Origin: Candidatus Omnitrophota bacterium
GTDB lineage: Bacteria; Omnitrophota; Gorgyraeia; Tantalellales; Tantalellaceae
Assembly: GCA_035403965.1 (NCBI GenBank)
Contig: DAONGE010000004.1
Coordinates: 18,306 to 82,305, forward strand
Direction: 5' to 3'
DNA: 64,000 bases
Below the pieces are notes generated by a model. That model was not told the origin of the DNA. It did not search any database and saw only the letters and a program-made list of their open reading frames with translations. Made by a program: the position numbers and the translations under genes. How positions within the stretch are numbered: the stretch's first letter is position 1; every line of letters starts with the position of its first letter. Shown here piece after piece: positions 6,886 to 64,000 of the stretch.

Positions 6886-6893
6886 CTATTATC

Positions 6894-27277: not shown

Positions 27278-27466
27278 ACTCCTCCTTCTCAAATGCCGCC
27301 TGCCGATAAAATTACTATATCATACTTTCTTTCGCATGATAAACCGGTTTATCAAAAATGTTGAACGCTAGCGCTTAAGGGGTCTTTTCTTAATTTAAAA
27401 CGCTAAACTAAACACAAAGGACCGGTTTTTGACCGGTCCTTCGTCTAAATAATATTATTTGTTGGT

Positions 27467-43694: not shown

Positions 43695-43696
43695 AA

Positions 43697-44560: not shown

Positions 44561-44648
44561 TTTCTGATCTCCTTTTTATCACTATACAACACATAGTCGT
44601 ACAATGCAAATTTGACGCTTTTTTAGCGCTTTGCTGGTTTGTTTTCCG

Positions 44649-45410: not shown

Positions 45411-45419
45411 CTTGTTCTC

Positions 45420-46136
45420 CTATAGTTTCGCCAATCTTGTTTCCGGCATAATTTTTAAGATCCACGCTATAAACCGCCAGCGCCGTGTAATATAGACTTT
45501 GCTCTTCTTTCGTTCTATCGCACTATAGATCTGCTTCGCGGCTTTATCTACAGGCGCCACCCAGAAGAGCCCTTCCCCTTGCGCCATTTTTGTGTCCACG
45601 AATCCGGGCCGGATATCCGTAACGGTTATCGGCATTTTCATTTTTATCATCTTTATTCTCAAGCCTTCCAAATAATTCGAGACGAACGCTTTAGACGCCG
45701 AATACGCCGGCGCCGTGAAATCTCCCCTGATGGCGGCCAGCGACGATATGCCGACAAGGTGTCCGCTTCTCTGTGCCAGAAAATACTTGGCCGCGTGATC
45801 CGCGATAGCCGTAAAACCGGAGACATTGACATCGATCGTTTCTTTTTCTTTTTCCCACGCGAGCTCCGGATTGATAAACCCCACCCCGGCGCTTATTACG
45901 CACACGTCCATCCCGCCCATTTCCCTGATCAATCCTTCAAAAGCGCGGATCGCCTCGTCGGGTTTGGCCACATCCATGTGTTTAACAAACATTTTCCCGG
46001 TAGAATTTTTAGTCATTTCCGATAACAATTCCGTCCGCCTGGCCGTGACACCGACAACGTAATTATTCTGAATGAATATTTTGGACAATTCCTTGCCAAT
46101 ACCCGATGACGCGCCGATTATGACAACTTTCTTCAT
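45420..46136 (-). CDS. SDR-family oxidoreductase
   Basis: GASSGIG Rossmann motif and YSASK catalytic motif. Confidence 0.85.
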   Translation of the reverse strand: MKKVVIIGASSGIGKELSKIFIQNNYVVGVTARRTELLSEMTKNSTGKMFVKHMDVAKPDEAIRAFEGLIREMGGMDVCVISAGVGFINPELAWEKEKETIDVNVSGFTAIADHAAKYFLAQRSGHLVGISSLAAIRGDFTAPAYSASKAFVSNYLEGLRIKMIKMKMPITVTDIRPGFVDTKMAQGEGLFWVAPVDKAAKQIYSAIERKKSKVYITRRWRFIAWILKIMPETRLAKL

Positions 46137-46490
46137 CCGTTTGACCTTCTCCTTCCGGGATAATACAGTGAAAGCATCGTGTATAAACTACCATAATCCC
46201 CGTTGGCGGGAAATATTTTTTTATATCCTTCGCGAACCTTTTAGCACTACCGGCGGAAATCACAGGATAGGCCGAGACCTTCGGTAGCTTGGCTCGAAAC
46301 CTGACTCGCCGCAGGTATAAATTAGGAGGAGATTTTAGAAATGTATATGGAAATAATATTTTTTTGCTTTTTTCCCGGTCCGGGTAAGACACTCGTCCAT
46401 TTCTTTCATATACTTCGGCACGTCGTTATATGGCCCGTCAAAAACTTTAGTCACAAAAGCCCCTGAGAAGCGGACATTCCTCGTCCCAAA

Positions 46491-46527
46491 GAGCGGGTTC
46501 AAATTCCGCGCAACACTCCCGTTGATC
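46491..46527 (+). other. tRNA 3'-end-like fragment (T-arm plus acceptor 3' half)
   Basis: GAGCGGGTTCAAATTCCGCGCAACACTCC: a GCGGG-TTCAAAT-TCCGC T-arm followed by a 7-nt acceptor-like segment, with no 5' half upstream. Confidence 0.4.
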
Positions 46528-46665
46528 CGTATTATTTGTCATTGTTCCTCCAAGCACGGTTTGTGGCCACAATTAATGTGGGTGTATTTTTAAAAACTCC
46601 CGCGCATGAAACATGGGTTGGCGGATATCCTTGGGCGAACCCATACTCAAAAACCAAAAAACTCA

Positions 46666-47424
46666 TCAAGGAACCGACCGAGACCATAAATAACCATACC
46701 GGGGATTGTTCTTCAGTAAAGTCGATACCTCTATGGCTGAAATCCATTCCGGCAGATCGAACTTCTCCGCCGTTTCGCCGGATGAAAAATTAAAATTATT
46801 ATTTCCCAGATCATTCAAATGTTTTAAATAATTCTGAGTCGAACTCACCGTTTCAGGACACAGTTCTAATGAAACCATGTGAACTTTTTGATTGAGACCT
46901 TTTAAAACATTATGTTCATTCCCTTCAACATCAATCTTTACATAATCTGGCAGACCATATTTTTTAATCAGATTATCCAATGTCGTTACTTCAACTTCCA
47001 CTTCTCTGTTCCAATCAAATTCAGAATACCTCTTACTTTCCTTGCATGCCTTGATCCAATCTGGCGCTACGGTTGACAGCGAATTAACTTCGCACATATA
47101 AAGCTTCTTCTTGCCAACACTTGTATCTAATGCCTGCGGAATAATGTCAACTTTGCGGTTAAACCGATATTTTTTTCGCAAATACCGAACGCACTCCGGA
47201 TTCGGCTCTACAGCAATGACTCTCGCCCCAAGACACAATAAAATATCTGTTACCCTCCCGATATTCGCGCCAACATCAAAACATAGCGGTTCCTCCTTAG
47301 ACAAAAAAGATCTATAAAACTTTGTTATCTTTGGATTGTTCTTATCCCGGCCATAGATCATGTCTCTTGTAATGTTAAATAAGCCAAACCAATTTAAGAT
47401 CTTTGCTTTTGTAACTGTTTTCAT
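46666..47424 (-). CDS. FkbM-family methyltransferase
   Basis: CFDVGANIGRVTD and VIAVEPNP motifs. Start at the internal MKTVTK. An isolated gene flanked by non-coding DNA and tRNA-like fragments. Confidence 0.7.
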   Translation of the reverse strand: MKTVTKAKILNWFGLFNITRDMIYGRDKNNPKITKFYRSFLSKEEPLCFDVGANIGRVTDILLCLGARVIAVEPNPECVRYLRKKYRFNRKVDIIPQALDTSVGKKKLYMCEVNSLSTVAPDWIKACKESKRYSEFDWNREVEVEVTTLDNLIKKYGLPDYVKIDVEGNEHNVLKGLNQKVHMVSLELCPETVSSTQNYLKHLNDLGNNNFNFSSGETAEKFDLPEWISAIEVSTLLKNNPRYGYLWSRSVP

Positions 47425-47440
47425 TCTATTTGACCTTTTT

Positions 47441-47462
47441 AGTTCGAATCCCCTTCTGCGCA
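47441..47462 (+). other. second tRNA 3'-end-like fragment (possible att remnant)
   Basis: AGTTCGAATCCCCTTCTGCGCA: a T-loop plus 3' T-stem plus an acceptor-like 3' end, with no 5' portion. Lies at the left edge of the nuclease operon. Confidence 0.35.
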
Positions 47463-47737
47463 AGCCGAAATCGAACATAACTCTCGATGGAAGGGTTCAC
47501 TTCAAAACTGGCGGGTAGTCGTGGACGGTAGGCGAACCCTACAAACCCTTGAAATAAGCCTACTTATAAAACTCTACCGTAAACGTAGTATGGGAGCGCT
47601 GATATCTTTAGGGGATCCACTCGACACTACCCTGCCGTACAATAAGGGCATTTTATCACAACACCGGCAAAAATCCAGTAAAATGGCCGTTTTGACCCCC
47701 TAAAATGACAAATCCCACAACCTTCCCCACCCTACCC

Positions 47738-49030
47738 TTAAACATCGAACTCTTCCCGATCCTGCAATATTTGCACGTTCTTAAACAATCTCGGGTATTG
47801 CCCAGACTCAAAAGTGTGAATCGGAATCAACTTGCCCGGGTTTAACGCTCCGGCAAAAACCTTTAAATCCTGTATTGTGGCATGACCGCTTGTATGAACA
47901 GTTTCAATATCCAATCCTTTTTGAGCGATAAAATCCTTAAATTTATCAGTCAAATATCCTTCCCACATTGAATAAATAATCTTTGCTCTCTCTATACCCT
48001 TGATATTCTTCACGAGTATGGGGAAAATAGAATTATCCCGTGCAAGCATCAAGACCTTATCCTTGATCGCATTAATCTCATCAATCTCAATCTTCCGAGT
48101 GTTGTAAGCATAGAGAAGTTTTACCGAGGCATTCTGAGCCAAAGAATCGGCGTGGCTCTTCAAAAATTTAACTCTGATATTTCGCCAGTTGAATTGAGGG
48201 ATATGTTTTGATACTTTCCTCAAACAATCAAGAATATACGCTGTATAAATATCAATCACGAATACATGATTTGTTTTAAGACAAGCCTTATACGCTGAAA
48301 CGATTCGGTCAATATTCTGAGATGATGCAAATAAAAACTTTATATTAGGGGTCGTCTTTAAAACTTTTTCCATGCAAGCTTGCACCGCCTGCTCATCTTT
48401 GAATAATTGTTCTCCTCTACCAATCATCGAACCTTCCAATAGCAAACAATCAATACCTTTCGGCGGCTTAGACACCATGCGCCTATAAAGCTCGCTTTTT
48501 CTTCCATGCCCCCTAAAATCTCCCGAATAAAAAACTTTCTTCCCATCAGCTTTAATCATGAAAGCGAGAGCGTCAAAAGCGGAGTGATCTACCAGATAAG
48601 GCGTGATTTCAAAATCACCAATGACCAGCTTCTTGCGCTTGTCTATAATTCTGGTATTTATTTTGCCGATTTTGTGCGGGGTAAATATATCCGACACCTC
48701 AATCAACGTCTTTGCCCCCTCGCTCATATATATAGGTATGCCGGGATGCACATACCGAAGCAATCCATAGTGATCCATGTGAGAATGCGATATGAGGATG
48801 GCGTCAACCGACCTCTCCTCATCTTTATAGAGGCCGCTCACGCTGGGAAGAATTTTTAATCTCCTCAATTCTTCCGGAGATTTACCAATCAAAGCCCTTG
48901 AATCAAACGATTCTTTTTGGGCGTTAACAAGCGGCAGTCCGAAATCGATCACGATCCGGTTTTTCTCCGTGAATACCTCTACGCAGGTCCCGCCAATTTC
49001 GGCTGTGCCTCTATGGATAATTAGCTTCAT
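47738..49030 (-). CDS. MBL-fold/beta-CASP nuclease (RNase J-like)
   Basis: 430 aa. HSHMDHYG motif and the C-terminal beta-CASP motif (HTSGHA). Last gene of a six-gene operon. Confidence 0.75.
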   Translation of the reverse strand: MKLIIHRGTAEIGGTCVEVFTEKNRIVIDFGLPLVNAQKESFDSRALIGKSPEELRRLKILPSVSGLYKDEERSVDAILISHSHMDHYGLLRYVHPGIPIYMSEGAKTLIEVSDIFTPHKIGKINTRIIDKRKKLVIGDFEITPYLVDHSAFDALAFMIKADGKKVFYSGDFRGHGRKSELYRRMVSKPPKGIDCLLLEGSMIGRGEQLFKDEQAVQACMEKVLKTTPNIKFLFASSQNIDRIVSAYKACLKTNHVFVIDIYTAYILDCLRKVSKHIPQFNWRNIRVKFLKSHADSLAQNASVKLLYAYNTRKIEIDEINAIKDKVLMLARDNSIFPILVKNIKGIERAKIIYSMWEGYLTDKFKDFIAQKGLDIETVHTSGHATIQDLKVFAGALNPGKLIPIHTFESGQYPRLFKNVQILQDREEFDV

Positions 49031-53496: not shown

Positions 53497-54969
53497 ATGA
53501 AAACAATGGAAATATGGGCAGATAGCTTTCATGAAGGGGAATGGTTTGTTGCCAACATTGCCCCATTCTGTAAAAGCCAGAAGATTGACTATATTTATGG
53601 CTTTATCCCTAGCCACACCTTACAGATAGCTGACTCTGTTAATGTGAACTTTACAGTCTTTGGTAGCTATAAATCATGGGAAAACTTACCAGCCAAAATT
53701 GAAAAATTATTGGACTATGGTAAACCCGATATCATTATTTACGATCGGGATTCAGATACAGTTATTTTGGCAATCGAAGAAACAGCGGCCGTCCCTACTG
53801 GAAATCAGGCCCTACAAAGATGTGAGAGGATTTTTGGAAGCGCCTATCTCAAAACTCCTTTTTCCTACCTACTCCCTGAATATGGCATCCATACTGATGG
53901 ACAAAATAGAAGAACCAGTATTTGGCCAACTTTGTTGGCTCTCAAGCTATCCATTCAATTTGGAGTGCCGTCCGTTTCATTTATGTATTCGGATTCCGAT
54001 AATCCCGAGGATTATCACAAAGGCACTGGCCTTAAATCATTATTTGAATATTCATACTTGCAAATAAAAAAGCACCTTAACCTTCTAAGCGAGAATGAAA
54101 AGGAACGCCTCAAAAAAGTTCTTAGTGACCAAATAGGTCGAATGTGTACTTTTATTGTTGATCAATACGCAAATATAATTCATTACTTACCAAGCGTGGA
54201 ACAATTAAAAAATCATGAATTCGTCCATGCGTTAGCCCAGAAGATCTTAGATAAAAGCAATTCTGAAAATTTAAATCTAGACACTTTCTTAAATTGGCCT
54301 TGTAAAAAAGATATTGATGGATTATCCCCCCTGCTCGGCTATATAAACAAAGACTCTTTCCTTTCCGGAATTGATACCGCTATAGAAAACAATAACGGGT
54401 ACGTTATCTCTCAAGGAGTTGGAAGCAAACCACAAAGCAAAGAAAGTATTGATGAGTGGCTTTTATCACAAGCCAAGCAATCTAAAAAAATAAATATTGA
54501 TTATTTAAGTCCTGTTAAGTCATTCTTGAAAACTGAAAATGGAAATTACCATATTACAACGTCAAAAAATATTACTTACTTCCTTGATAATATTTTACAT
54601 ATCGACACGGCATTCCACGATGCCTTTCCAAAAAGAAACTTTAAGCCAAGCGACCTACTCAACAACCATAAAAACCTACCGGTGTTCTTATACATTTCGA
54701 ATTCGTTGAAACCAAACCGTATCTTCGGAGATCCCTTTACTGGCCAATTCGCAACATTCTCAAATCTTTTTTGCTTTACATGTTCTTACAGAAGATACCG
54801 ATCTTCAATTATTTATCTACCCTATGTTTCGGCGGGGTGTTTTTATGATAACTCCAATACTTTAGTCCAAAATAAAGGGCTATCGATTTATCTATTATTA
54901 GCAGATTTAATAATTTGTAATAACGGGTATGTTATTTCAATGATGGAGAAAGGCAAGCTCTATGCGTAA
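53497..54969 (+). CDS. putative restriction endonuclease, large ORF (490 aa)
   Basis: AT-rich gene convergent with two DNA methyltransferases. PD-(D/E)xK-like segment DIIIYDRDSDTVILAIEET. No other recognisable homology. Confidence 0.5.
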   Translation: MKTMEIWADSFHEGEWFVANIAPFCKSQKIDYIYGFIPSHTLQIADSVNVNFTVFGSYKSWENLPAKIEKLLDYGKPDIIIYDRDSDTVILAIEETAAVPTGNQALQRCERIFGSAYLKTPFSYLLPEYGIHTDGQNRRTSIWPTLLALKLSIQFGVPSVSFMYSDSDNPEDYHKGTGLKSLFEYSYLQIKKHLNLLSENEKERLKKVLSDQIGRMCTFIVDQYANIIHYLPSVEQLKNHEFVHALAQKILDKSNSENLNLDTFLNWPCKKDIDGLSPLLGYINKDSFLSGIDTAIENNNGYVISQGVGSKPQSKESIDEWLLSQAKQSKKINIDYLSPVKSFLKTENGNYHITTSKNITYFLDNILHIDTAFHDAFPKRNFKPSDLLNNHKNLPVFLYISNSLKPNRIFGDPFTGQFATFSNLFCFTCSYRRYRSSIIYLPYVSAGCFYDNSNTLVQNKGLSIYLLLADLIICNNGYVISMMEKGKLYA

Positions 54970-55567
54970 TAATCAAATAATATATTCAATATCCGAAGAA
55001 ATCGTGCGCTTCACATTTGAAGTCCACGTAAAACGAAGCGCTCCGGAGTGGAATATTTGTTTTACAAATCCAACAGCGGGTCCATGGAAAACAATTACTT
55101 ATGAGACGCCGGATAGCTCTATAAAAATTGGTCGATACGAAAGAGAAGAACAACGTCCCGATCTAATTCTTCTAAATAATAGTAAATCGGTTTGTTTAAT
55201 AGTTGAGGCTAAGGATGAGTTCAGCAAAATATCTTCGATGGATCAAATAAATAAATCTTTTAAGGTTTTTAAAAAAGAGGTTAAACGATTTCAGTCCTGC
55301 ACAAACCTGACTAATTACTTACGAAATAAGCTTTGTTTTATCGATGGTTTTTTGTGGTATTCATCGGACAAAAAATCGGCGGATATTTTTGCGGAATCTT
55401 ATTACAAAGAAACAAAAAGCGTCAACCCTCTTGTCTGCATTCTGATCTACAAACTTCCTGACAACTCCCTCGCTTGCGGTGGTTCATTGTTTTTTGCTCC
55501 AAACACAGACAAGAGCGATCACATCATCTCTTCCTTTCAGGAATTAATGCTAAAAAGGCTCAGTTGA
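54962..55567 (+). CDS. PD-(D/E)xK nuclease-like protein (second endonuclease ORF or subunit)
   Basis: RPDLILLNN ... VCLIVEAKDE is a classic PD..(D/E)xK pattern. Overlaps the upstream ORF by 8 nt in another frame. Confidence 0.5.
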   Translation: MRNNQIIYSISEEIVRFTFEVHVKRSAPEWNICFTNPTAGPWKTITYETPDSSIKIGRYEREEQRPDLILLNNSKSVCLIVEAKDEFSKISSMDQINKSFKVFKKEVKRFQSCTNLTNYLRNKLCFIDGFLWYSSDKKSADIFAESYYKETKSVNPLVCILIYKLPDNSLACGGSLFFAPNTDKSDHIISSFQELMLKRLS

Positions 55568-57417
55568 TTATCCGCTCTTAATTGATAAAGTTTCCCTTTT
55601 TTCTCTGCAACATTTTTTAACACATCAAGAATTTCTACAATTTCCGGAGCACGACTAAAATCATAATTATCTAAAACGTTCTTTACTATTTCCCACCCAT
55701 CACAGGATCCCTTTTGCAAGCGATCCTTAACTATAGCCTCAATGTCATTTTGAACCGGCGTCGTCTTTTCGTAAGTGGGAAGATACAATAATCGTGCCTC
55801 TTTTAATTCATTAAAATTCTCTTTCAGAAACTCTTCGGCATAATACAAATGATCGCAAGATAGTTGTTTTTTAAGAACGACGCCCACAATCACTCTGATT
55901 GCATGCGGCTTATAAATAACGCCTTCCCTTGCGCCCGCCATATTTCCGAACATTTCTTTCAATAAATCATTAAATTCTTTTTGGGACAACTTATTGCGCT
56001 GGCATTCACTAACCTTCTTAAACGTTACATAAAAATCTCCTAGATAACTCCCTTGGGGTGAAAATCGTGCCTTTGCAGGGATAACCGCAGGTAATGTCAG
56101 ACATATATCTTCAAAATTTAGTGAGGCCTGTTCCGAGGCTAAAAGCAACGAATGCCACGCATCAATAACTAAGTGGTTAAATGTAAAAGTTACACATCCA
56201 TTAAAACAGAGACTATTAACGGCTTTTTTTATACCATCGACCAATTCGTTTTTATAAATATCCCACGATTTATTCCGAGTTTTACTATCTGAAACTACTA
56301 TTTCTTTTTTATAATTTGGTTCTTTTTTTAACCAAGCGTTCCAGATAGCTGAAAATTCAAGGTAAGGAACACTGTCTCCATAAGGTGGGTCAGCGAAAAT
56401 ATATCCTATTTTCTTCTCAGATATCCTCTCTCCAACAGCATCTATCCCATCGGAATATATATATGTTTTAGTCCCTTCCTTGAGCAACACATTTATTCGA
56501 GCCAATGCATCCATTGTTTTTTTGAAGCGACTTTCAAACGCAACGAAAGGATTAGTTTCTAAATGAATAGCGGGAATCCAAAAGCCGGGAACAGACCACG
56601 CAGGTCCTCCCGTAGTTAAATCATTACGATAGGCAATAAGACGGCTACATTGTGTTGCTGTAGCAGTAAGATTAAGCAAAAAAATATTTCTTATAGTTTC
56701 GTCTTTAATAGCATGGATTTTATTTGCCATCTTCGACAAAACAGTGTATGCCCTAGGTGTATAAAATTTACGCAACGTCGTATCTTGATAACTTAATATC
56801 CTTTTGTTTACTATAAACCTCACATCGTAGATTTGCCCGATCTCGTCTTTTTTGTTAGCCTGAACCGTCTGTTGCTCAATATTCTTTTTATTGTTGATAT
56901 CGAGCTTTGATGTTAACAGAACCTTGATTACGTCAGATCCACTTATGGTGCCTAAATTTGCATTGTTTGCGGTTGAACACTGCGGACAAATATATTTTTT
57001 CCCTTTCTTTTTAACTCCCTTAATCGAATAAACATTTTCGCATTTTTGACATTTAAGACACACCTCATGGACGCAATACTTTACCATCCCGTGTTCAGTT
57101 TCATATGGCTGAGCATACTCCTTAAATAAATTCTTGAGGTTCTCATGCTCATCAATTATTTTGCTCATTATTACTTTTGTTGTTGAAACATTTCCGATTA
57201 AACCAGAAATTGGGTTGATATCAATTCCGATACTATTAATACCTAGTTTTGCTGATTCGATATTAGTAACACAGCTTCCGCAGAATGGATCTAATACATA
57301 AGCGTTTTCCAACGCATATTTTTTTATAAATGACGCCACAACATTATGGGGTTTTCTAGCCCAGTATTTGTGGATTAAATATTCAGAAGGATGCGTTTTG
57401 GCAACGTAAACTTTCAT
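55537..57417 (-). CDS. DNA methyltransferase (N6-adenine/N4-cytosine, DPPY type) with a zinc-ribbon insert
   Basis: Motif I LDPFCGSC, motif IV IFADPPYGD, and C-x2-C...C-x2-C between them. 626 aa. Confidence 0.75.
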   Translation of the reverse strand: MKVYVAKTHPSEYLIHKYWARKPHNVVASFIKKYALENAYVLDPFCGSCVTNIESAKLGINSIGIDINPISGLIGNVSTTKVIMSKIIDEHENLKNLFKEYAQPYETEHGMVKYCVHEVCLKCQKCENVYSIKGVKKKGKKYICPQCSTANNANLGTISGSDVIKVLLTSKLDINNKKNIEQQTVQANKKDEIGQIYDVRFIVNKRILSYQDTTLRKFYTPRAYTVLSKMANKIHAIKDETIRNIFLLNLTATATQCSRLIAYRNDLTTGGPAWSVPGFWIPAIHLETNPFVAFESRFKKTMDALARINVLLKEGTKTYIYSDGIDAVGERISEKKIGYIFADPPYGDSVPYLEFSAIWNAWLKKEPNYKKEIVVSDSKTRNKSWDIYKNELVDGIKKAVNSLCFNGCVTFTFNHLVIDAWHSLLLASEQASLNFEDICLTLPAVIPAKARFSPQGSYLGDFYVTFKKVSECQRNKLSQKEFNDLLKEMFGNMAGAREGVIYKPHAIRVIVGVVLKKQLSCDHLYYAEEFLKENFNELKEARLLYLPTYEKTTPVQNDIEAIVKDRLQKGSCDGWEIVKNVLDNYDFSRAPEIVEILDVLKNVAEKKGKLYQLRADNQLSLFSINS

Positions 57418-58637
57418 TTTTTCTTCTCAAATGTAAGTATAAAATCAGAAAGAACAATCCCGACCTTATCACCCTCTCTTCGTTGACTGGCAACCCAAGA
57501 AGCTTCGGTAAATTTAGGTCTTCTGATCGCAATATTAATCAATTCAAGATCTATATCCCGTAAACAATCCAACAATAAACGAGTGGTTGGAATGTGTTTC
57601 CCCCTTAATCGAGTATCCCCGATCATCAAAGAAAAATAAGTTTTCTTATTAATTTGAGAGGAAAGCGCTCTAATGCTATCCGCCATATCATCAACATATT
57701 TATGAACATTCTCTTCTTTCCCGATCTTGAAGAACTCCCTAACTTCGTTTTTTGATAATTCCTTATTCGAAATGCCAAGCCAAGGCAACTCTAGCGAAAA
57801 TATCGTACTAAATTTATACACATTAAAATACGGCGGATGGCATATTATAAGTTTTGGATTAATTTCCTTGAAATTCACATGACGCACATCCTCTCTTATA
57901 AATCGAGGCGAAGCAAAATTTTCCGGGAGAGCAGAAACTGCCTTTATGATTTTTTCGGCACTTTTGTTAAATTCTATAATGGGTTCGGATTGGGCAGACT
58001 TAACATCCAGAAATAAACGACCTTGCAAAGACGTTGCCTTTGATACTTTTCTTATAATTGAAATAAAAATACAATCAAATACTCGTCTAGTAATTTCGTC
58101 ATCAATATCATTAATTAAGCTCTTAATACGTTGTAAATTCTTAAATGTTTGAGGCAAATACCAATGCTCTATTCTGGACTCATCAAACGGAATTTTCAGA
58201 TCATAGTTTTTAGATGACAATTTTTTGTATTTCTCATTTAAATTACTTAATGTTTGCTTAAGTCGACTTCCTTTCACGTATTGACATTTGACATTAACCA
58301 ACAACTCGCTCAAAACGCTTACATCTGAACATACCACCTTACGATCCATCAATAAACACTCAAGAGCTGTGGTTCCACTACCACACATAGGGTCAAAAAC
58401 CATATCACCTATCTTTGTATATCTTGAAATTAAGCCCCTAGCTACGGGTGGAGGGAATTTTCCGAAAAACCTAAATATGGAATGAGTGAGATAGGCTAAT
58501 TTAATCGAAGAATGGGGTATATCCCAGACATCCGTTATACTGCTATAATCTTCCAATTTAGAATCTCTAAGCAGTTCTTTTTGATAATCCAGAGATATAG
58601 GATCCGTTGATATAACAATTTCGGGATACGTATTCAT
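57414..58637 (-). CDS. DNA methyltransferase (second MTase of the R-M module)
   Basis: Motif I VFDPMCGSGTT and motif IV ICHPPYFN. Overlaps the downstream MTase by 4 nt. Own promoter-like TTGAAA/TAAAAT at ~58665-58700 on the minus strand. Confidence 0.75.
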   Translation of the reverse strand: MNTYPEIVISTDPISLDYQKELLRDSKLEDYSSITDVWDIPHSSIKLAYLTHSIFRFFGKFPPPVARGLISRYTKIGDMVFDPMCGSGTTALECLLMDRKVVCSDVSVLSELLVNVKCQYVKGSRLKQTLSNLNEKYKKLSSKNYDLKIPFDESRIEHWYLPQTFKNLQRIKSLINDIDDEITRRVFDCIFISIIRKVSKATSLQGRLFLDVKSAQSEPIIEFNKSAEKIIKAVSALPENFASPRFIREDVRHVNFKEINPKLIICHPPYFNVYKFSTIFSLELPWLGISNKELSKNEVREFFKIGKEENVHKYVDDMADSIRALSSQINKKTYFSLMIGDTRLRGKHIPTTRLLLDCLRDIDLELINIAIRRPKFTEASWVASQRREGDKVGIVLSDFILTFEKKK

Positions 58638-59628: not shown

Positions 59629-59691
59629 AAAAATCCCCTCCTTTCGAGGGGTATAGGGCCATACGTTTTAATAGTTGGCAAGGCGTTTCTT

Positions 59692-60027
59692 CTAAAATTC
59701 CACCCGCACGCCAGCCTTACCACCCACGCCCTTGCGATTATCTGATTCGGCGAATCCATAGCCTTCCACAAAAGGACTGACCTCAATGCCGGGCTTCTCC
59801 TGCTTTTTCTGATCCACCGTCACCTGAGCGCCGGACTGAGCGATGATATGCGTTTCCTGCTTTGTGGTTTGCGTCGGCATAAAGAACGCACGATAAATCG
59901 TGAGCCCGACAAAACCAAGCAACGCTATGCCAGCCGCATAACGTAATGTTTTCACCCACGGTAATACCTGAGTGAAACTTCCCAAAAACTTCAATAAACT
60001 AAACTTCTCACCATCAGCCATATACAC
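59692..60027 (-). CDS. small membrane protein (111 aa), holin/spanin-like
   Basis: One or two TM helices then a hydrophilic tail. Confidence 0.4.
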   Translation of the reverse strand: MYMADGEKFSLLKFLGSFTQVLPWVKTLRYAAGIALLGFVGLTIYRAFFMPTQTTKQETHIIAQSGAQVTVDQKKQEKPGIEVSPFVEGYGFAESDNRKGVGGKAGVRVEF

Positions 60028-60028
60028 C

Positions 60029-60295
60029 TCACTTTCTTCCCGCTTTAAGATCGCTCCTGAGTTCGTCTATCGCCTTAATAATCCGGTCATTTTCTTTCTC
60101 GATAAACCGGCTCTGAATATCAAACTCCGCTTTCGACACATAAAGGCTTCTTGGCATGTGAATCTCGTCATTCGCCAGATGATGAAACAGCTTCTCATCA
60201 ATACGGTTGACCTGCGCAATAATAACCCCGAGCATGAATATCGTAATTGTCACCAGAACCGGCGTGATGAATTTAGTCCAGTTACCGCTCTGCAT
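60029..60295 (-). CDS. small membrane-anchored coiled-coil protein (88 aa), i-spanin-like
   Basis: N-terminal TM helix followed by a coiled coil. Confidence 0.4.
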   Translation of the reverse strand: MQSGNWTKFITPVLVTITIFMLGVIIAQVNRIDEKLFHHLANDEIHMPRSLYVSKAEFDIQSRFIEKENDRIIKAIDELRSDLKAGRK

Positions 60296-61508
60296 GATCG
60301 CCTTTCCCTTTTAACGCTTCCAATATCTCCTCGTTCTGCTTGGCGACATCAACCAATACCTTTCCGACCTTATAGAGCATGCGCTCACGCCTGTCAGCCA
60401 GCTCAACCGGCAAAAAGCCCAACGCCTGCTCGCTCTCAACAGCACATATCCGGCAATATTTCGTGATCGGCACCGTGAGTTCCTGATTGACCTTGTAGTG
60501 CGTGATCACGCAACTGTGACATGTGCGGGCGTGCGGGCAGTTCTTCCAACAGCCGGTGTATTCCTTGTCGATATTCAAAAAGATGCCCCGGATAAATGGT
60601 CGCTCGTGAAAGATATTCCCGAGCTTGAATATCCGTGCGCTGGCCGCACGATGACAAGGATAAACGTCACCGTTATCCAATATCGCAATATACGTCTTGC
60701 CAGCCTGACAGTATTCCTTCTCTGGTGGCGTCTCATCATTAACGATCCTGAGTGGCTTATCGATAAACGCTATCTCAAGCGGCAACCCCTGACGTTTGCA
60801 ATACCGGCGGTAATGATAAATCTGCGCCAGCTGATACCGGTACTGCTCGACCGCTTCCTCTGTCCAATCTTGCTCCATTACGGCGTGATGCATAATCTTC
60901 GTAATCCCAAGCTCATGCAAATACTGAACGTTGATCGCCAGCCGCCCGACTGTCTTGGGCGTGAACGTCATACGCACGCTCATATCCGGCTTAATCGCCA
61001 AAATACTTTTTATGTTCTCAATGATCCTCTTATAGTCGCCATGCCGGTATTCGGTATGCGTGATCTCATCGCCGTCACAGCTGACCTGAACCGCCATCCC
61101 CAGCTCGGCGAATTTCTTGAACACGCCCTCATCGAAAAACATACCGTTGGTAGAAATCGAGAATGTGGATGTATGCCGACCCTCTTTATCCGGCGGCCAC
61201 AGTTCCCGTGCGTATTGAGCAAGCTCAATCACCGTCTGCGGATAAAGTAACGGCTCACCACCAAAGAACGTAATCTGCAACCCCTGCGGGCTTAACTCCT
61301 TCATTCGAGCGAGAATCTTTTTTCCATGTTCGACCGAAAGCACCGCCTCAGTCTTTGGATGAAAACAATAATCACAATGCATATTGCACTGCTCGGTAAC
61401 GAACAAATCAATACTTTTGATTTCGTCTTTGGTCTTACCGCCGACCACTTCCTCGTTAGACATTAACCGCCTCCTTCTTTTCTTTTTCCAACTGAATATA
61501 TTTATCAA
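60282..61508 (-). CDS. radical SAM/SPASM-domain enzyme 1 (anSME-like)
   Basis: CNMHCDYC cluster plus a C-terminal SPASM Cys array (CQAGKTYIAILDNGDVYPC, CWKNCPHARTCHSC). Start is uncertain, either M1 or MSNEE. Confidence 0.8.
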   Translation of the reverse strand: MINIFSWKKKRRRRLMSNEEVVGGKTKDEIKSIDLFVTEQCNMHCDYCFHPKTEAVLSVEHGKKILARMKELSPQGLQITFFGGEPLLYPQTVIELAQYARELWPPDKEGRHTSTFSISTNGMFFDEGVFKKFAELGMAVQVSCDGDEITHTEYRHGDYKRIIENIKSILAIKPDMSVRMTFTPKTVGRLAINVQYLHELGITKIMHHAVMEQDWTEEAVEQYRYQLAQIYHYRRYCKRQGLPLEIAFIDKPLRIVNDETPPEKEYCQAGKTYIAILDNGDVYPCHRAASARIFKLGNIFHERPFIRGIFLNIDKEYTGCWKNCPHARTCHSCVITHYKVNQELTVPITKYCRICAVESEQALGFLPVELADRRERMLYKVGKVLVDVAKQNEEILEALKGKGDHAER

Positions 61509-62541
61509 TAACCTTCGCCAAAACCTTGTTCATAGCGCAATAACCCGGCTCCGGATTAAACATGTCGCCCATATGCTCAAGATTAAGCCCCAAACATTTA
61601 TTGCGAGGACACCGTTTATACAACTCGCAATCCTCACAGAACCTGCCGAGAAACTGCTCCCGATTAGCGTCTATCTCCCAAACGTAATCAAGTTTTGAGT
61701 AATCAATTCCCTCATACACTGACCCAAGTTTGTTATGCCTGCAGATATACATGTTGTCGCACTGCCAGATGCCACCCTCGGTATCAATAAAAAGCCGCTC
61801 AAGCCCTGTCCTGCAAAAATGAAATTCCCGCACCTGCGCCTTTAACCCGAACTCCCGCACATAAGCGTTGCTATGAAGCGCCGGGTTTAATGTTTGAAAC
61901 ATCTCAGCGTCCCGCTCATGCTCAATGAGCAACTCGAAATACTGATCAGCGAACCTCTCCAAATCTTCACGGCTGTGATCGTGCCTTGTGGCGAGGTCAA
62001 TCGTGATATTGCGGGTGATGTTCTCTGCGATAAAATCAAAATCCTCTTTCAGCTTCTCATACTCCACAACCATGAAATTAACGTTGTGATTCGGATTCTC
62101 CCTGACCAGATTCAGCATCCACGACTCAGCCTGCGCCTTCCCTTGAGGCCCGCCGTATTTTTCATAACAGTTCCCAAACGACCACGTGATCCCAATATTG
62201 CGATGCTTTGAGAAAAACTTATACATGCGCTCATCGACCAACGCTCCGTTTGTGTTCATATGAAAGAGCATCTGCGGATACTTCTCCATCACATGCTGGA
62301 TAACCTCGAAATTAACCGTTGGCTCACCACCCCAAAAATAAATAGTGAACTTAGGTGCGAGCTTGAGCTTTGAGAAACAAAAATCTAATATGTCATCCGC
62401 TATCTGCTTGGACATCTTCACAGGCCCGAGCGTTGATATCTTGTTGCGCTCAAACAATCCCCTGCGGTAGCAAAACGAGCAATTGGCGTTGCAGGCGTGC
62501 GTCAAATACAGATACACTGACTTGTAAATCGGAATCCTCAT
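61456..62541 (-). CDS. radical SAM/SPASM-domain enzyme 2 (paralog)
   Basis: CNANCSFC cluster plus SPASM (CRTGLERLFIDTEGGIWQCDNMY, CEDCELYKRCPRNKC). Confidence 0.8.
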   Translation of the reverse strand: MRIPIYKSVYLYLTHACNANCSFCYRRGLFERNKISTLGPVKMSKQIADDILDFCFSKLKLAPKFTIYFWGGEPTVNFEVIQHVMEKYPQMLFHMNTNGALVDERMYKFFSKHRNIGITWSFGNCYEKYGGPQGKAQAESWMLNLVRENPNHNVNFMVVEYEKLKEDFDFIAENITRNITIDLATRHDHSREDLERFADQYFELLIEHERDAEMFQTLNPALHSNAYVREFGLKAQVREFHFCRTGLERLFIDTEGGIWQCDNMYICRHNKLGSVYEGIDYSKLDYVWEIDANREQFLGRFCEDCELYKRCPRNKCLGLNLEHMGDMFNPEPGYCAMNKVLAKVIDKYIQLEKEKKEAVNV

Positions 62542-63755
62542 GCCCGCCCCTTGTAATAAAGCGTATCGACTCCAGTCTCGATCGCTTTCTTTACGATATA
62601 CTCATACGTCGCAGTCTCAATCCGATTCGCCCAGCAATGATTCGGCGCTGGCTTTAACGGATTGCCGGTGACGGTGTAATTCTCCGCCAAACACATCGCC
62701 CTTGGACAACACCTGATATCGCCGTCAAAACAAACCTCGCAATCCCGGCAATGCTCATACAGCTCATCAATCCAATCGCCCATCTTCTTGAAAAAGAACG
62801 CTGTGTCGTTAAACCCGTTCCGCACATCGCCAATCTTAAACTCCGGATAATTAGCGAAGAAATCGCAAGGATAAATCTCGCCTTTATTGTTCACCGCAAG
62901 ATATAAATATCCGCACCCGCAAAAAGTCGGCGGCACGTCCTTAAGCGGCATTCCCTTCATCTTGCGGTAAATGTTATTCTTCAATGCTATATCCCACTGA
63001 CTCCTGCCAAACTTCGGCTGGTCGCTAAAATAAACGTAATCCGCAATGCGTTTGAATAAATCCTTGAACTGCTCGTTCTTATTCCTAACCATATCCCAAT
63101 GCCGGGCAGATGATACCCTCACGATCGGCACACCGTATTCATACAACCGAATAATCTCCTCATAAATCCCCGGACGCTCCGGGTCATCAACCACGTAATG
63201 CACATCCCCGCCGTTGGCTTTAACCAAATCGAGCACCGCCTTGGCTTTATCCAAATAACCATCACCCAAAACACTGCGTAACGCCGACACGCTGACGCTC
63301 AAATTTAAATGATATTTGTGCCGCAATACCCATTCCCTGACATCCTCATTCTCCAAAAGCACAAGACCGTTCGTGGTGACAACGTAACGATACATGCAAT
63401 AGGTATCACAAAGATATCGAACCATCGGGAAATTCAAAAACGGTTCACCGCCAAAGATGCTGAACTTAATCCTGCGTTCATTGAACGTCCGGGAAACCCA
63501 GTCCATCGTTGAATCGATAACATCCTGCGTAATACCGGTATCCTTCTGTCTGAACTCTTTAGGCTGATAACAATAGGCGCATCGCAGATTGCAATCCTGC
63601 GTCATGAGAAAATACACTGTGGTGTATTCCTGCTTGCCGTCCGTTATCGAGTCGATATCAAACATCCCCTCGTCTTTATACCGCTTGATAACATCCCTGC
63701 ACTGTAACGGCAGGTCACCGGCCGCCTTGCTGTTCTTAAGTTCAAATACCGCCAT
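62538..63755 (-). CDS. radical SAM/SPASM-domain enzyme 3 (paralog)
   Basis: CNLRCAYC cluster plus SPASM (CGCGYLYLAVNNKGEIYPCDFF, CRDCEVCFDGDIRCCPRAMC). Confidence 0.8.
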   Translation of the reverse strand: MAVFELKNSKAAGDLPLQCRDVIKRYKDEGMFDIDSITDGKQEYTTVYFLMTQDCNLRCAYCYQPKEFRQKDTGITQDVIDSTMDWVSRTFNERRIKFSIFGGEPFLNFPMVRYLCDTYCMYRYVVTTNGLVLLENEDVREWVLRHKYHLNLSVSVSALRSVLGDGYLDKAKAVLDLVKANGGDVHYVVDDPERPGIYEEIIRLYEYGVPIVRVSSARHWDMVRNKNEQFKDLFKRIADYVYFSDQPKFGRSQWDIALKNNIYRKMKGMPLKDVPPTFCGCGYLYLAVNNKGEIYPCDFFANYPEFKIGDVRNGFNDTAFFFKKMGDWIDELYEHCRDCEVCFDGDIRCCPRAMCLAENYTVTGNPLKPAPNHCWANRIETATYEYIVKKAIETGVDTLYYKGRA

Positions 63756-63993
63756 CGATCCTCCAAATCAATTTGCTAAGACCCGCCTCGATCTCAACAA
63801 TATCCATCCCGAGTCTTTCCGAAAATACCTGCCGGTGTTGATCGGTAATATCGCCCACGTGTGAGGCGTAAAGGTTATCCCTATGCTTCCCGGCAACAAA
63901 TAAAACGAAGTTTGAGATATTGCCATTCTCTCCCTCAACGCCAAGATCCTGATAAACCTGACGCAAGACATCAACGAAAGCCTGAACACTCAT
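63742..63993 (-). CDS. hypothetical protein upstream of the radical-SAM trio (possibly truncated by the window edge)
   Basis: 83 aa as listed. Overlaps the start of rSAM 3. The frame may continue beyond position 64000. Confidence 0.35.
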   Translation of the reverse strand: MSVQAFVDVLRQVYQDLGVEGENGNISNFVLFVAGKHRDNLYASHVGDITDQHRQVFSERLGMDIVEIEAGLSKLIWRIDGGI

Positions 63994-64000
63994 AAATCTC

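What the first reader, a model, noticed from the sequence alone, without database searches (positions are those of the whole stretch)
60282..63993. Three tandem paralogous radical-SAM/SPASM (anSME-like) enzymes in one overlapping operon that runs off the window
Three consecutive ORFs each carry a CxxxCxxC cluster and a C-terminal SPASM twitch domain with the anSME-like GxxYPC motif. Their starts and stops overlap, and a further overlapping ORF (63742..63993) precedes them. Tandem triplication of peptide/protein-modifying rSAM maturases predicts a multi-step post-translational modification pathway. Candidates are a RiPP or modification of a protein substrate. No Cys-rich precursor peptide is visible in the downstream part of the operon, so the substrate gene is probably upstream of 64000 or is one of the small proteins.
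Basis: partly seen in the sequence, partly recalled or inferred. Interest (0 to 1): 0.75.

Follow-up and report, generated by a model that had tools for sequence, protein, structure and literature searches.

The report
Radical-SAM trio beside Cys-rich prophage tail protein
Three different radical-SAM enzymes sit at the end of the tail genes of a prophage in an Omnitrophota bacterium, right after a cysteine-rich tail-fibre-type protein that they most likely cross-link; this would be a way of building virus particles that has not been described.

Summary
Three overlapping minus-strand genes (rsA 62538-63755, rsB 61456-62541, rsC 60282-61463) each carry CX3CX2C and a SPASM-type Cys extension. They are 20-27% identical paralogs, not fragments of one gene. 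They are not anSME: there is no sulfatase, and TIGR03942 scores are 37-68 bits against a cutoff of 349. The best-scoring models are thioether-forming maturases (PapB family, then SCIFF/CteB and QhpD), all below cutoff. The window is bacterial chromosome (Omnitrophota, Velamenicoccus-like). The trio closes a complete lambda-like prophage morphogenesis operon (terminase to tail-tip J). Identical contigs extend past 64000. Two genes upstream of rsA they encode a 241-aa protein with three 'WTDPTITAxxTKIRKVHIDELR' repeats and a C-terminal domain with 13 Cys, 9 of them invariant. The cassette Cys-protein plus rSAM A-B-C is kept wherever the contigs reach, including phages with unrelated contractile tails. 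Shorter relatives (repeats plus Cys tract), two of them fused to a tail-fibre intramolecular-chaperone domain, also had rSAM genes within three genes in 7 of 7 look-ups. Most likely the enzymes install thioether cross-links in a tail-fibre-type protein; the chemistry and the virion location are inferred. I found no description of this in the searchable literature.

The parts
63742..64000 (-). 3' part of a 131-134-aa gene ('s134') of unknown function. It lies between the Cys-rich protein gene (outside the window, at what would be 64143-64868) and rsA, and overlaps rsA by 14 bp.
   Evidence: It is conserved at 33-94% identity in the sipho-type lineage but absent from the myo-type loci L042, L043, L045, L072 and L074. 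It has no Pfam, PHROG, NCBIfam or PDB match.
62538..63755 (-). rsA, a 405-aa radical SAM/SPASM enzyme ('A type'). It has CNLRCAYC at residues 55-62, a 45-aa N-terminal extension and no RRE-sized domain.
   Evidence: Pfam Radical_SAM 1.7e-8. TIGR04085 SPASM 33.4 bits against a cutoff of 27; best NCBIfam model NF047865 (PapB family) 107.8 bits against 340. Best PDB sequence match 5wgg (CteB) at 1e-16. Orthologs at 37-39% identity keep first position in L042, L043 and L074.
61456..62541 (-). rsB, a 361-aa radical SAM/SPASM-like enzyme ('B type'). It has CNANCSFC at residues 17-24. Its start overlaps the rsA stop by 4 bp.
   Evidence: Pfam Radical_SAM 29.8 bits against 29.5. NF047865 101.9 bits over the full length; TIGR04085 24.0 bits against 27, just below cutoff. 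5wgg at 6e-10. The SPASM Cys columns align with rsA and rsC. Orthologs at 32-40% identity keep second position.
60282..61463 (-). rsC, a 393-aa radical SAM/SPASM enzyme ('C type'). It has CNMHCDYC at residues 26-33. The ATG at 61463 follows AAGGAGG, and the gene overlaps rsB by 8 bp.
   Evidence: Pfam Radical_SAM 7.5e-16 and SPASM 23.6 bits against 21.5. NF047865 170 bits, TIGR03974 106 bits. 5wgg at 1.7e-19. The C type is the most widely kept partner: orthologs at 28-50% identity are the last or the first rSAM next to the Cys-tract protein in L042, L043, L045, L072, L074 and L082-L086.
60029..60295 (-). 88-aa protein with one predicted membrane helix. It overlaps the rsC stop by 14 bp and is co-transcribed. 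Function unknown.
   Evidence: No family match. In L008-type loci a 1.1-kb insert with 98-aa and 183-aa ORFs separates it from rsC.
59692..60021 (-). 109-aa protein with a hydrophobic segment. It is the last gene before the terminator-like hairpin. Function unknown.
59635..59651 (-). Terminator-like hairpin (CCCCTC-GAAAG-GAGGGG followed by ATTTTTAT). It is the first convincing one downstream of tail gene J.
   Evidence: L002 14105-14121; window coordinate = 73756 minus L002 coordinate.

Best explanation
The three genes encode three non-redundant radical-SAM/SPASM protein maturases of the thioether-forming type (PapB / SCIFF maturase / QhpD-like). None has a peptide-recognition (RRE) domain. 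They are expressed as the tail end of the late (morphogenesis) operon of a lambda-like prophage in a Velamenicoccus-like Omnitrophota bacterium.

Their substrate is most likely the 241-aa protein encoded two genes upstream, just outside the window. That protein has an N-terminal bundle of three 'WTDPTITAxxTKIRKVHIDELR' repeats. Its 110-aa C-terminal domain has 13 cysteines: nine are invariant (C133, C135, C140, C143, C146, C160, C178, C234, C236) and they sit beside invariant E138 and D145. C92 in the linker is also invariant and D95 is invariant or nearly so, giving a further C92-x-x-D95 pair.

In the anoxic host cytoplasm, each enzyme would abstract a hydrogen atom from a carbon of an acceptor residue and join it to a Cys sulfur. 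Different sites would be handled by A, B and C. The product would be a redox-insensitive, multiply cross-linked knot on a tail-fibre-type protein that is then built into, or onto, the tail tip.

Shown: the gene content, the paralogy, the operon structure, the prophage context and the conserved co-occurrence.
Inferred: the enzyme-substrate relation, the thioether chemistry, the division of labour among A, B and C, and the virion location.
For: 1. Enzyme type. All three score best, and over their full length, against NF047865 (PapB-family ranthipeptide maturase). Next come the SCIFF, nif11, CXXX-repeat and QhpD maturase models. The best solved structure for all three is CteB, 5wgg.

2. Ancient, conserved triplication. 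A, B and C are 20-28% identical to each other. Each is 32-50% identical to its ortholog in distant loci, and the A-B-C order is kept.

3. Operon. The genes overlap by 4, 8 and 14 bp. No terminator-like site lies between J and rsC, and a good one follows at 59635-59651.

4. Context. TerL, portal, scaffold, major head, connectors, major tail, tape measure, M, L, K and J are followed by small ORFs, then the Cys protein, then the rSAM genes.

5. Co-occurrence.
- In 30 of 30 IMG/VR loci, and 10 of 10 genome loci, with sequence downstream of the Cys protein, rsA follows. All three rSAM genes are present wherever there is at least 3.6 kb of downstream sequence.
- The cassette persists where the tail genes are only about 30% identical (L032-L039).
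- It also persists next to contractile-tail baseplates: L042/L076; L043 with base_V, PAAR and gp25; L074.

6. Relatives outside this lineage. A family of short proteins (repeats plus tails such as CLCDCDGHCACHCDAC...) has 1-5 rSAM genes within three genes in 7 of 7 loci examined (L082-L088). The loci are usually just after Baseplate_J or fibre-like genes.

7. Fibre nature.
- P0266 and P0271 fuse repeats plus a Cys tract to a Peptidase_S74 intramolecular-chaperone domain. By established knowledge this domain is specific to trimeric phage fibres and spikes.
- P0265 is followed by a separate S74 ORF.
- Upstream neighbours are fibre-like.
- In L042 the gene after the rSAM genes hits a tail-fibre-assembly PHROG at 1e-7.

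8. Controls. Repeat-only proteins with signal peptides (P0050, P0052) have no rSAM neighbours. P0050 sits next to a thioredoxin-fold protein with a CxxC motif, which looked DsbA-like to me but was not scanned.

9. An anaerobic setting fits oxygen-sensitive enzymes: NrdD is in the window, and the closest genome comes from a methanogenic enrichment (PMC12583861).
Against: - There is no biochemical or proteomic evidence. Substrate assignment rests on conserved adjacency only.
- All three enzymes fall far below the curated cutoffs of every named maturase family, so the chemistry could differ (for example C-C cross-links, epimerisation or methylation).
- The Cys-rich domain was modelled with low confidence (pLDDT 40-70) and has no structural neighbour in the PDB.
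- CxCx4Cx2Cx2C is also a plausible metal or Fe-S binding motif.
- The Cys protein is among the most conserved proteins of the region: 93% identity where J is 85% and s134 is 64%. That is unlike a typical host-range-determining adhesin.
- In the L032 group the cassette tracks the downstream genes (d88 at 93%) rather than the tail genes (about 30%). It could therefore be an accessory 'moron' that merely sits after tail genes.
- The window-lineage protein has no S74 domain.
- HMMs of the family find nothing next to the rSAM clusters of cultured jumbo phages.
Confidence: 0.55

Rival explanations
1. The cassette is a phage-borne RiPP-like cluster. The triple-repeat domain would act as a large leader (as nitrile-hydratase-like leaders do in proteusins). 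The Cys-rich part would be a heavily modified core, released at lysis or by a host protease as a toxin, signal or host-modulating factor, and would not be part of the virion.
For: - The enzymes belong to the RiPP-maturase branch.
- Clusters of the short family also carry B12-binding rSAM, aminotransferase (Aminotran_1_2, DegT) and carbamoyltransferase genes, as in multi-step natural-product pathways.
- In the L032 group the cassette tracks the downstream genes rather than the tail genes, and the junction after rsC is variable.
Against: - No leader peptidase, exporter or immunity gene lies within 10 kb in any locus.
- No own promoter or terminator separates the cassette from the tail genes.
- The position directly after fibre or baseplate genes is kept across unrelated tail types.
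- Two homologs are fused to the tail-fibre S74 chaperone domain.
- The repeat domain also occurs in thousands of large extracellular proteins that have no rSAM partner in the two cases looked up.
Confidence: 0.2
2. The Cys-rich domain is a metal-ion or Fe-S binding element. It could be a structural staple of a fibre, as His-bound Fe/Zn is in T4 gp37 and gp12, or a dedicated electron carrier for the enzymes. The three rSAM enzymes would then act on something else: another tail protein, a cofactor or a small molecule.
For: - C140-x2-C143-x2-C146 plus C133, C135 and C153 resembles cluster-binding spacing.
- The tails of the short family are rich in C, H, D and N, like metal-binding peptides.
- AlphaFold cannot fold the domain on its own.
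Against: - Strict adjacency to 1-5 rSAM/SPASM genes of the thioether-forming branch across at least 9 lineages is what is seen for maturase-substrate pairs.
- A ferredoxin role does not explain the extracellular-type repeat domain or the S74 fusion.
- No other conserved candidate substrate accompanies the enzymes across lineages: s134 and the 330-377-aa protein are each lineage-restricted.
Confidence: 0.12
3. The genes are ordinary anaerobic sulfatase-maturing enzymes (anSME) that convert Cys or Ser to formylglycine in sulfatases.
For: A GxxYPC-like motif and a SPASM domain are present, as in anSME. TIGR03942 gives weak hits.
Against: - TIGR03942 scores are 67.5, 37.3 and 44.8 bits against a cutoff of 349, well below the PapB, SCIFF and nif11 models.
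- No sulfatase gene lies in the window's last 10 kb or in the 10 kb beyond it.
- The neighbours are phage tail genes.
Confidence: 0.02
4. The three ORFs are fragments or recent duplicates of one disrupted gene.
For: The ORFs are adjacent and overlapping.
Against: - Each ORF is full-length against a 330-position maturase model, with its own CX3CX2C and SPASM cysteines.
- Pairwise identity is only 20-28%.
- Each has its own ortholog series in distant loci.
Confidence: 0.01

Closest known systems
PapB / freyrasin ranthipeptide system (NF047865). The enzymology is from my own knowledge: PapB links Cys sulfur to the beta-carbon of Asp in CX3D motifs.
   Same: It is the best-scoring model for all three enzymes, aligned end to end (positions 2-330). 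It is a short rSAM/SPASM architecture with no long N-terminal domain. The candidate substrate has conserved Cys residues near invariant or nearly invariant Asp/Glu (C92-x-x-D95, C135-x-x-E138, C143-x-D145).
   Different: Scores of 170, 102 and 108 bits lie far below the cutoff of 340. There are three diverged enzymes instead of one. The substrate is a 241-aa two-domain protein in a phage tail operon rather than a short leader-core peptide. There is no protease or exporter.
CteB / SCIFF maturase (TIGR03974; PDB 5wgg)
   Same: It is the closest solved structure by sequence for all three (E = 1.7e-19, 6e-10, 1e-16). It is a thioether-forming SPASM enzyme from anaerobes.
   Different: The alignments start after CteB's N-terminal RRE domain (chain residue ~91), so the RRE is missing here. 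TIGR03974 scores are 106, 40 and 74 bits against 425. There is no SCIFF-type 45-residue precursor.
QhpD-QhpC (TIGR03906). From my own knowledge: QhpD makes intra-protein Cys-to-Asp/Glu thioethers in the small subunit of quinohemoprotein amine dehydrogenase.
   Same: It is the precedent for an rSAM/SPASM enzyme that cross-links a Cys-rich protein subunit which stays part of a larger assembly, rather than a peptide that is cleaved and exported. All three enzymes hit the model (62.6, 61.5 and 55.2 bits).
   Different: The scores are far below the cutoff of 453. There are no Qhp dehydrogenase genes. Here there are three enzymes and a phage structural context.
Phage fibres stabilised by other means: T4 gp37 and gp12 with axial His-bound Fe/Zn, and fibres or spikes folded by a C-terminal Peptidase_S74 intramolecular chaperone (my own knowledge)
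   Same: The genes sit after tail-tip or baseplate genes. Family members P0266 and P0271 carry the S74 domain with the SDxRLK cleavage motif. The tract is repetitive and rich in Cys and His.
   Different: No known fibre is matured by radical-SAM enzymes. The window's protein has no S74 domain, and its oligomeric state is unknown.
rSAM gene clusters inside structural modules of giant phages: Aeromonas phage 332-Vera with eight rSAM genes, called 'highly unusual' in PMC12390700; SPN3US-like phages and Ralstonia RP12
   Same: Tandem rSAM genes of the same PHROG (phrog_1802) lie next to virion structural genes.
   Different: Identity is only 20-25%. HMMs of the repeat/Cys-tract family find no homolog beside the Lh1B and RP12 clusters, so a shared substrate type is not shown.

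Membership tests
Radical SAM superfamily (PF04055) | A CX3CX2C motif binding the SAM-cleaving 4Fe-4S cluster, and a Pfam score above the gathering threshold | tested here: met
   One CX3CX2C per protein. PF04055 scores are 59.2 (rsC), 29.8 (rsB, borderline) and 35.2 (rsA) bits against 29.5.
SPASM/twitch subfamily (PF13186, TIGR04085) | A C-terminal extension with CX9-15GX4C, a CX2CX5CX3C-like block and a further Cys, for auxiliary Fe-S clusters | tested here: met
   rsC: PF13186 23.6 bits against 21.5. rsA: TIGR04085 33.4 bits against 27. rsB: TIGR04085 24.0 bits, just below 27, but it has CX17C with the conserved Gly, CEDCELYKRCPRNKC and a distal Cys, aligned with the other two. Cluster binding itself is not testable here.
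anSME (TIGR03942) | A score above the curated cutoff | tested here: not met
   67.5, 37.3 and 44.8 bits against 349.45.
anSME (TIGR03942) | Association with a sulfatase gene | tested here: not met
   No sulfatase lies among the called genes within 10 kb on either side.
PapB-family ranthipeptide maturase (NF047865) | A score above the equivalog cutoff | tested here: not met
   170.1, 101.9 and 107.8 bits against 340. This is nevertheless the top model, matched over the full length.
PapB-family ranthipeptide maturase (NF047865) | Cys-to-non-alpha-carbon thioether formation on a Cys/Asp-rich substrate | not testable with these tools
   A Cys/acidic-rich candidate substrate exists. The chemistry needs mass spectrometry or NMR.
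SCIFF maturase (TIGR03974) | A score above cutoff, an N-terminal RRE and an adjacent SCIFF precursor | tested here: not met
   106, 40 and 74 bits against 425. The alignments start at model position ~91-100, after the RRE. No SCIFF-like ORF is present.
QhpD (TIGR03906) | A score above cutoff and qhpABC neighbours | tested here: not met
   62.6, 61.5 and 55.2 bits against 453. No Qhp genes are present.
Canonical RiPP biosynthetic cluster | A short precursor with a leader, an RRE (fused or discrete), and a leader peptidase and/or exporter | tested here: not met
   The candidate precursor is 241 aa. There is no RRE-sized domain. s134 has no PqqD-like or any other match. No peptidase or transporter lies in the +/-10 kb; the only peptidase-fold gene is tail protein K (NlpC/P60).
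Lambda-like siphophage morphogenesis module (prophage) | TerL, portal, major head protein, tail terminator, tape measure, M, L, K, J in order | tested here: met
   PHROG hits: TerL 3e-200, portal 1e-131, major head 6e-49, scaffold 1e-12; the tail terminator hit is weak (5.5e-4). Pfam Phage_min_tail, Phage_tail_L, NLPC_P60 and GpJ domains. It sits in a closed bacterial chromosome. Integrase, att sites and inducibility were not examined.

The most novel reading that the evidence does not exclude
A previously unrecognised class of phage tail-fibre-type proteins exists. Each has a triple 'TDPTITAxxTKIRxxHIxELR' domain plus a Cys-rich tract, and is post-translationally cross-linked by dedicated, phage-encoded radical-SAM/SPASM enzymes (one to five per locus) before or during virion assembly. 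In phages of anaerobes this would give thioether-stapled, redox-proof fibre tips. It would be the first radical-SAM maturation of a virion structural protein. It would also offer an explanation for at least part of the puzzling rSAM gene clusters found in phage structural modules.
Probability: 0.45. Interest if true: 0.88.

Novelty: new variant of a known kind. Interest (0 to 1): 0.78.

Why it matters
Radical-SAM/SPASM maturases are known for peptides (RiPPs) and for a few enzyme subunits (QhpC, sulfatases). Virion proteins are known to be stabilised by disulfides, isopeptide bonds, metal ions and intramolecular chaperones. An enzyme-installed thioether knot on a tail-fibre-type protein would join these two fields.

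It would give a concrete, testable reason why phages of anoxic habitats carry several oxygen-sensitive rSAM genes inside their structural operons. That feature has been noted as 'highly unusual' and left unexplained (PMC12390700).

It would also supply a large, naturally diversified set of substrate/enzyme pairs for protein-stapling chemistry.

The closest genome is the closed chromosome of Ca. Velamenicoccus archaeovorus LiM, an enrichment-cultured predator of archaea and bacteria with published metaproteomes. The first test can therefore be made on existing data.

Tried and rejected
1. 'The window is a huge phage.' This was my working assumption after (scattered tRNAs, NrdD, many PHROG hits, a 308-kb contig). 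I rejected it for two reasons. The same locus lies in the closed 1.97-Mb chromosome of Ca. V. archaeovorus and in Omnitrophota MAG contigs of up to 820 kb. The left part of the window encodes purD, purM, purB, a PfkB kinase, sugar epimerases and similar genes.

2. 'The number of rSAM genes scales with the number of Cys.' I dropped this. The apparent one-enzyme locus L075 was a truncated contig; its extension L083 has five rSAM genes.

3. Generalisation to cultured jumbo phages. The proteins upstream of the rSAM genes of Lh1B and RP12 were read. RP12 ORF074 looked repeat-like by eye, but HMMs of the family give no hit at E <= 10 in L046, L047, L077, L078, L080 or L081.

4. s134 as a discrete RRE or chaperone. 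It has no Pfam, PHROG or NCBIfam hit, and a profile search of the PDB gives nothing below E = 0.3. It is also absent from the myo-type loci.

5. Structure of the Cys protein. AlphaFold gives three confident helices for the repeats (pLDDT 80-93) but a poorly defined Cys domain. Foldseek against the PDB gives no match at E <= 0.001.

6. DNA and protein searches of GenBank phages. There is no near DNA match. There is no protein match for the Cys protein or for the 163-aa fibre-like protein.

7. A scan of viral contigs with the short-family alignment failed because no stretch was conserved enough. P0105 found nothing.

8. Literature. Nine searches and seven papers read gave no description of rSAM-modified phage tail proteins or of this prophage. 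The library lacks most subscription journals, so absence is not proof.

Full report
OBSERVATION

The region holds three consecutive minus-strand genes. I call them:
- rsA, 62538-63755, 405 aa
- rsB, 61456-62541, 361 aa
- rsC, 60282-61463, 393 aa

Pfam finds Radical_SAM and Fer4_12 in all three. Each has one CX3CX2C motif and a C-terminal cysteine cluster that aligns column for column among the three. SPASM models pass their cutoffs in rsC (PF13186, 23.6 bits against 21.5) and in rsA (TIGR04085, 33.4 against 27). In rsB the score is just short (24.0 against 27).

The genes are translationally coupled. rsA and rsB share ATGA. rsB and rsC overlap by 8 bp when rsC starts at the ATG at 61463, which follows AAGGAGG.

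ORF 63742-63993 is the 3' part of a 131-134-aa gene that starts beyond the window.

The three proteins are only 20-28% identical to each other, and each is full-length against a 330-position maturase model. They are old paralogs, not pieces of one broken gene.

WHAT KIND OF ENZYMES

For all three, the best NCBIfam model is NF047865, the PapB family of ranthipeptide maturases. It aligns end to end at 170, 102 and 108 bits, but the cutoff is 340. Next come the SCIFF, nif11, CXXX-repeat, CcpM and QhpD maturase models.

The anSME model is much weaker (67.5, 37.3 and 44.8 bits against 349). The closest solved structure for all three is CteB, the SCIFF thioether synthase (5wgg).

Alignments to RRE-bearing families start after the RRE. 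The enzymes therefore lack a peptide-recognition domain.

My reading: they belong to the thioether-forming, peptide/protein-modifying branch, but to no named family.

WHERE THE WINDOW COMES FROM

At first I took the window for a huge phage. That is wrong.

- The exact rsA protein occurs on nine contigs, and the last 11.46 kb of the window is 100% identical to three of them.
- A scan of species-representative genomes places the same gene order, at 77-95% protein identity, in two kinds of record. One is the closed 1.97-Mb chromosome of Candidatus Velamenicoccus archaeovorus LiM. The others are Omnitrophota MAG contigs of up to 820 kb.
- The left part of the window encodes purD, purM, purB, a PfkB kinase, sugar-nucleotide enzymes and similar genes.

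Upstream of the trio, beyond position 64000, the identical contigs carry a complete lambda-like morphogenesis module. In order it contains:
- large terminase, portal, scaffold and major head protein
- connectors and tail terminator
- major tail protein and tape measure
- tail proteins M, L, K (NlpC/P60) and the 1162-1206-aa tip protein J

After J come ORFs of 72-83, 91, 163, 241 and 134 aa, and then rsA, rsB and rsC. Two small membrane proteins follow, then a terminator-like hairpin at window 59635-59651.

The trio is therefore the distal end of the late operon of a prophage, or a prophage-derived element, in an anaerobic Omnitrophota bacterium.

THE CANDIDATE SUBSTRATE

The 241-aa protein (L002 8888-9613; it would lie at 64143-64868 in window coordinates) has 17 cysteines and no signal peptide.

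N-terminal 130 residues. This part holds three repeats of WTDPTITAxxTKIRKVHIDELR. AlphaFold models them as three helices with pLDDT 80-93.

C-terminal 110 residues. This part has 13 Cys. Across 44 homologs down to 38% identity, the invariant residues are:
- in the C-terminal domain: C133, C135, E138, C140, Y142, C143, D145, C146, G147, C160, C178, W206, W218, C234, C236
- in the linker: C92, with P93 nearly invariant and D95 invariant or nearly so

Conserved Cys residues thus sit next to conserved acidic residues: C92-x-x-D95, C135-x-x-E138 and C143-x-D145. By my own knowledge of PapB and QhpD, this is the kind of pairing those enzymes join.

The Cys domain is poorly modelled, and the model has no PDB neighbour. 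No Pfam, PHROG or NCBIfam family covers the protein.

COMPARATIVE EVIDENCE FOR A FUNCTIONAL UNIT

Within the window's lineage:
- Among 36 IMG/VR loci found with the 241-aa protein, all 30 that extend past it carry rsA next. In most of them s134 lies in between.
- All 17 loci that extend at least 3.6 kb carry A, B and C in that order.
- The same holds for the genome loci.

Across tail types:
- In the L032-L039 group the tail genes are only about 30% identical and the small fibre-like ORFs are replaced. The cassette is still there at 59-71% identity.
- The cassette also occurs next to contractile-tail baseplates. L042/L076 and L074 carry A, B and C at 32-50% identity.
- L043 has Phage_base_V, PAAR, gp25 and a baseplate wedge. 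Then come two unknown proteins, the Cys protein, A, B and C, and two more rSAM genes.
- L045 and L072 have a 219-227-aa version with two rSAM genes, one A/B-like and one C.
- Each ortholog is far closer to its counterpart than to its paralogs. The triplication is therefore old, and each copy is kept.

A WIDER CLASS

A profile of the family finds 3928 cluster representatives at E <= 0.001.
- Only about 15 of the 150 best hits listed cover both domains.
- The triple repeat alone is a widespread module of large extracellular-type proteins. Its partner domains include FN3, CBM6/35, Big_9 and Peptidase_S74.

A distinct short family (135-210 aa) consists of the repeats followed by tails such as CLCDCDGHCACHCDACGCDCDWCSSHC. 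I looked up seven such loci outside the window's lineage, and all seven have rSAM genes within three genes:
- L082: next to a diversity-generating retroelement and fibre-like genes, with one 461-aa rSAM/SPASM.
- L083: five rSAM genes plus an aminotransferase.
- L084 and L086: after Baseplate_J and fibre-like genes, with a C-type rSAM, a B12-binding rSAM, an A/B-type rSAM and, in L084 only, a fourth rSAM with a SPASM domain.
- L085: a C-type and an A/B-type rSAM.
- L087 and L088.

In L082-L086, L045 and L072, the rSAM that matches best is a C-type ortholog at 28-38% identity to rsC.

Two members (P0266, P0271) fuse the repeats and a Cys tract to a Peptidase_S74 domain with the SDxRLK cleavage motif. 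P0265, which has 30 Cys in CNCNYCT heptads, is followed by a separate S74 ORF. By established knowledge, this intramolecular chaperone is specific to trimeric phage fibres and spikes. It is therefore the strongest indication that these proteins are fibre components.

As controls, two repeat-domain proteins with signal peptides (P0050, P0052) have no rSAM neighbours. P0050 lies next to a thioredoxin-fold protein with a CxxC motif, which looked DsbA-like by eye but was not scanned.

MECHANISM PROPOSED

- Shown: three distinct SPASM-type rSAM enzymes are co-transcribed with tail genes and invariably linked to a Cys-rich protein of fibre type.
- Inferred, step 1: the 241-aa protein is their substrate.
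- Inferred, step 2: each enzyme forms thioether links from Cys sulfur to a carbon of nearby residues, at its own set of sites.
- Inferred, step 3: the product is a covalently knotted domain that does not depend on disulfides. That would suit a particle released into a reducing, anoxic habitat.
- Inferred, step 4: the repeat bundle serves as the docking or scaffold part.

The host cytoplasm is anoxic. NrdD lies in the window, and the closest genome comes from a methanogenic enrichment (PMC12583861). Oxygen-sensitive enzymes are therefore usable there.

RIVALS

- A released RiPP-like product. This fits the enzyme branch, the extra tailoring genes of the short family, and the way the cassette tracks the downstream genes in the L032 group. 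It lacks a protease, an exporter and its own transcription signals, and it does not explain the S74 fusions.
- A metal or Fe-S binding Cys domain, with the enzymes acting elsewhere. Sequence cannot exclude this.
- The anSME reading and the broken-gene reading are both refuted.

CAVEATS

- No experiment or proteomic datum was available.
- All family scores are below cutoff.
- The Cys protein is unusually conserved for a receptor-binding protein.
- The window-lineage protein has no S74 domain.
- The repeat/Cys family is not found beside the rSAM clusters of cultured jumbo phages. The link to those clusters is only one of gene family (phrog_1802) and position.

NOVELTY

The enzymology is of a known kind. 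What appears undescribed is the combination of three things: a dedicated multi-enzyme set, a tail-fibre-type protein substrate with a characteristic repeat domain, and a fixed place in phage tail modules. I found no account of it in the papers I could search, and that library is incomplete.

I rate it a new variant of a known kind, with interest 0.78.

Noticed in passing
window 1-53000: This part is bacterial chromosome, not phage. It encodes purD (620-1978), purM-like (1939-2961), purB (2996-4297), a PfkB kinase (6852-7835), an NAD epimerase (12436-13401), a hexapeptide transferase (13398-14441), anaerobic ribonucleotide reductase NrdD (17666-19675) and five scattered tRNA genes. Genes lie almost all on the minus strand, and GC skew is steadily negative across the window.
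   Followed up: partly
window 53497-58637: A low-GC island (35-36% against about 44%). It carries two N6/N4 DNA methyltransferase genes (57414-58637 and 55537-57417, minus strand) and two convergent plus-strand ORFs of 490 and 201 aa with no family match. This may be a horizontally acquired restriction-modification unit just downstream of the prophage late operon.
   Followed up: partly
window 42069-47478: A small biosynthetic-looking cluster. It contains a thiamine-diphosphate enzyme (42069-43694), an esterase/lipase-like protein (43697-44560), two methyltransferases (44649-45410, 46666-47478) and a FabG-like reductase (45420-46136). A metallo-beta-lactamase/RMMBL protein follows at 47738-49030.
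   Followed up: no
window 25772-27292: A hybrid histidine kinase with two receiver-domain matches followed by HisKA and HATPase_c. A TPR protein lies next to it at 23188-24909.
   Followed up: no
L008 12581-13443 (also L012, L016, L021-L027, L089, L090, L093): In many related loci, including the closed V. archaeovorus genome, a 1.1-kb insert lies between rsC and the 88-aa membrane protein. It carries a 98-aa ORF and a 183-aa ORF. In the window these two flanking genes overlap, so this junction is a variable spot.
   Followed up: partly
L082 2337-5501: A diversity-generating retroelement lies directly upstream of a repeat/Cys-tract protein and its rSAM. By eye it comprises a reverse transcriptase (407 aa), an Avd-like 112-aa protein and a 412-aa target protein that looks like a formylglycine-generating-enzyme/C-type-lectin fold; these three assignments are from reading the sequences, not from a domain scan.
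   Followed up: no
proteins P0048-P0054 and the 3928 hits: The triple repeat 'WTDPTITAxxTKIRKVHIDELR' is a very widespread, apparently unnamed domain. It often sits at the C-terminus of secreted multi-domain proteins (FN3, CBM, Big_9 partners), including proteins from Patescibacteria and Elusimicrobiota MAGs. No model in the Pfam copy used here matches the members scanned. One cluster carried a precomputed PF27469 tag that this Pfam copy did not reproduce.
   Followed up: partly
L083-L086 (genes directly after the short Cys-tract protein): A conserved protein of 327-377 aa with unknown function always lies between the short repeat/Cys-tract protein and the first rSAM. The copies are 23-29% identical to each other. 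It has no counterpart in the window's cassette, where the unrelated 134-aa protein occupies that place.
   Followed up: partly
L001 versus L002, 7543-7909: The 3' end of tail gene J differs between two otherwise identical contigs (1206 aa against 1162 aa, with the last part in another frame). This could be a frameshift, an assembly variant or a programmed alternative C-terminus of the tail-tip protein.
   Followed up: no
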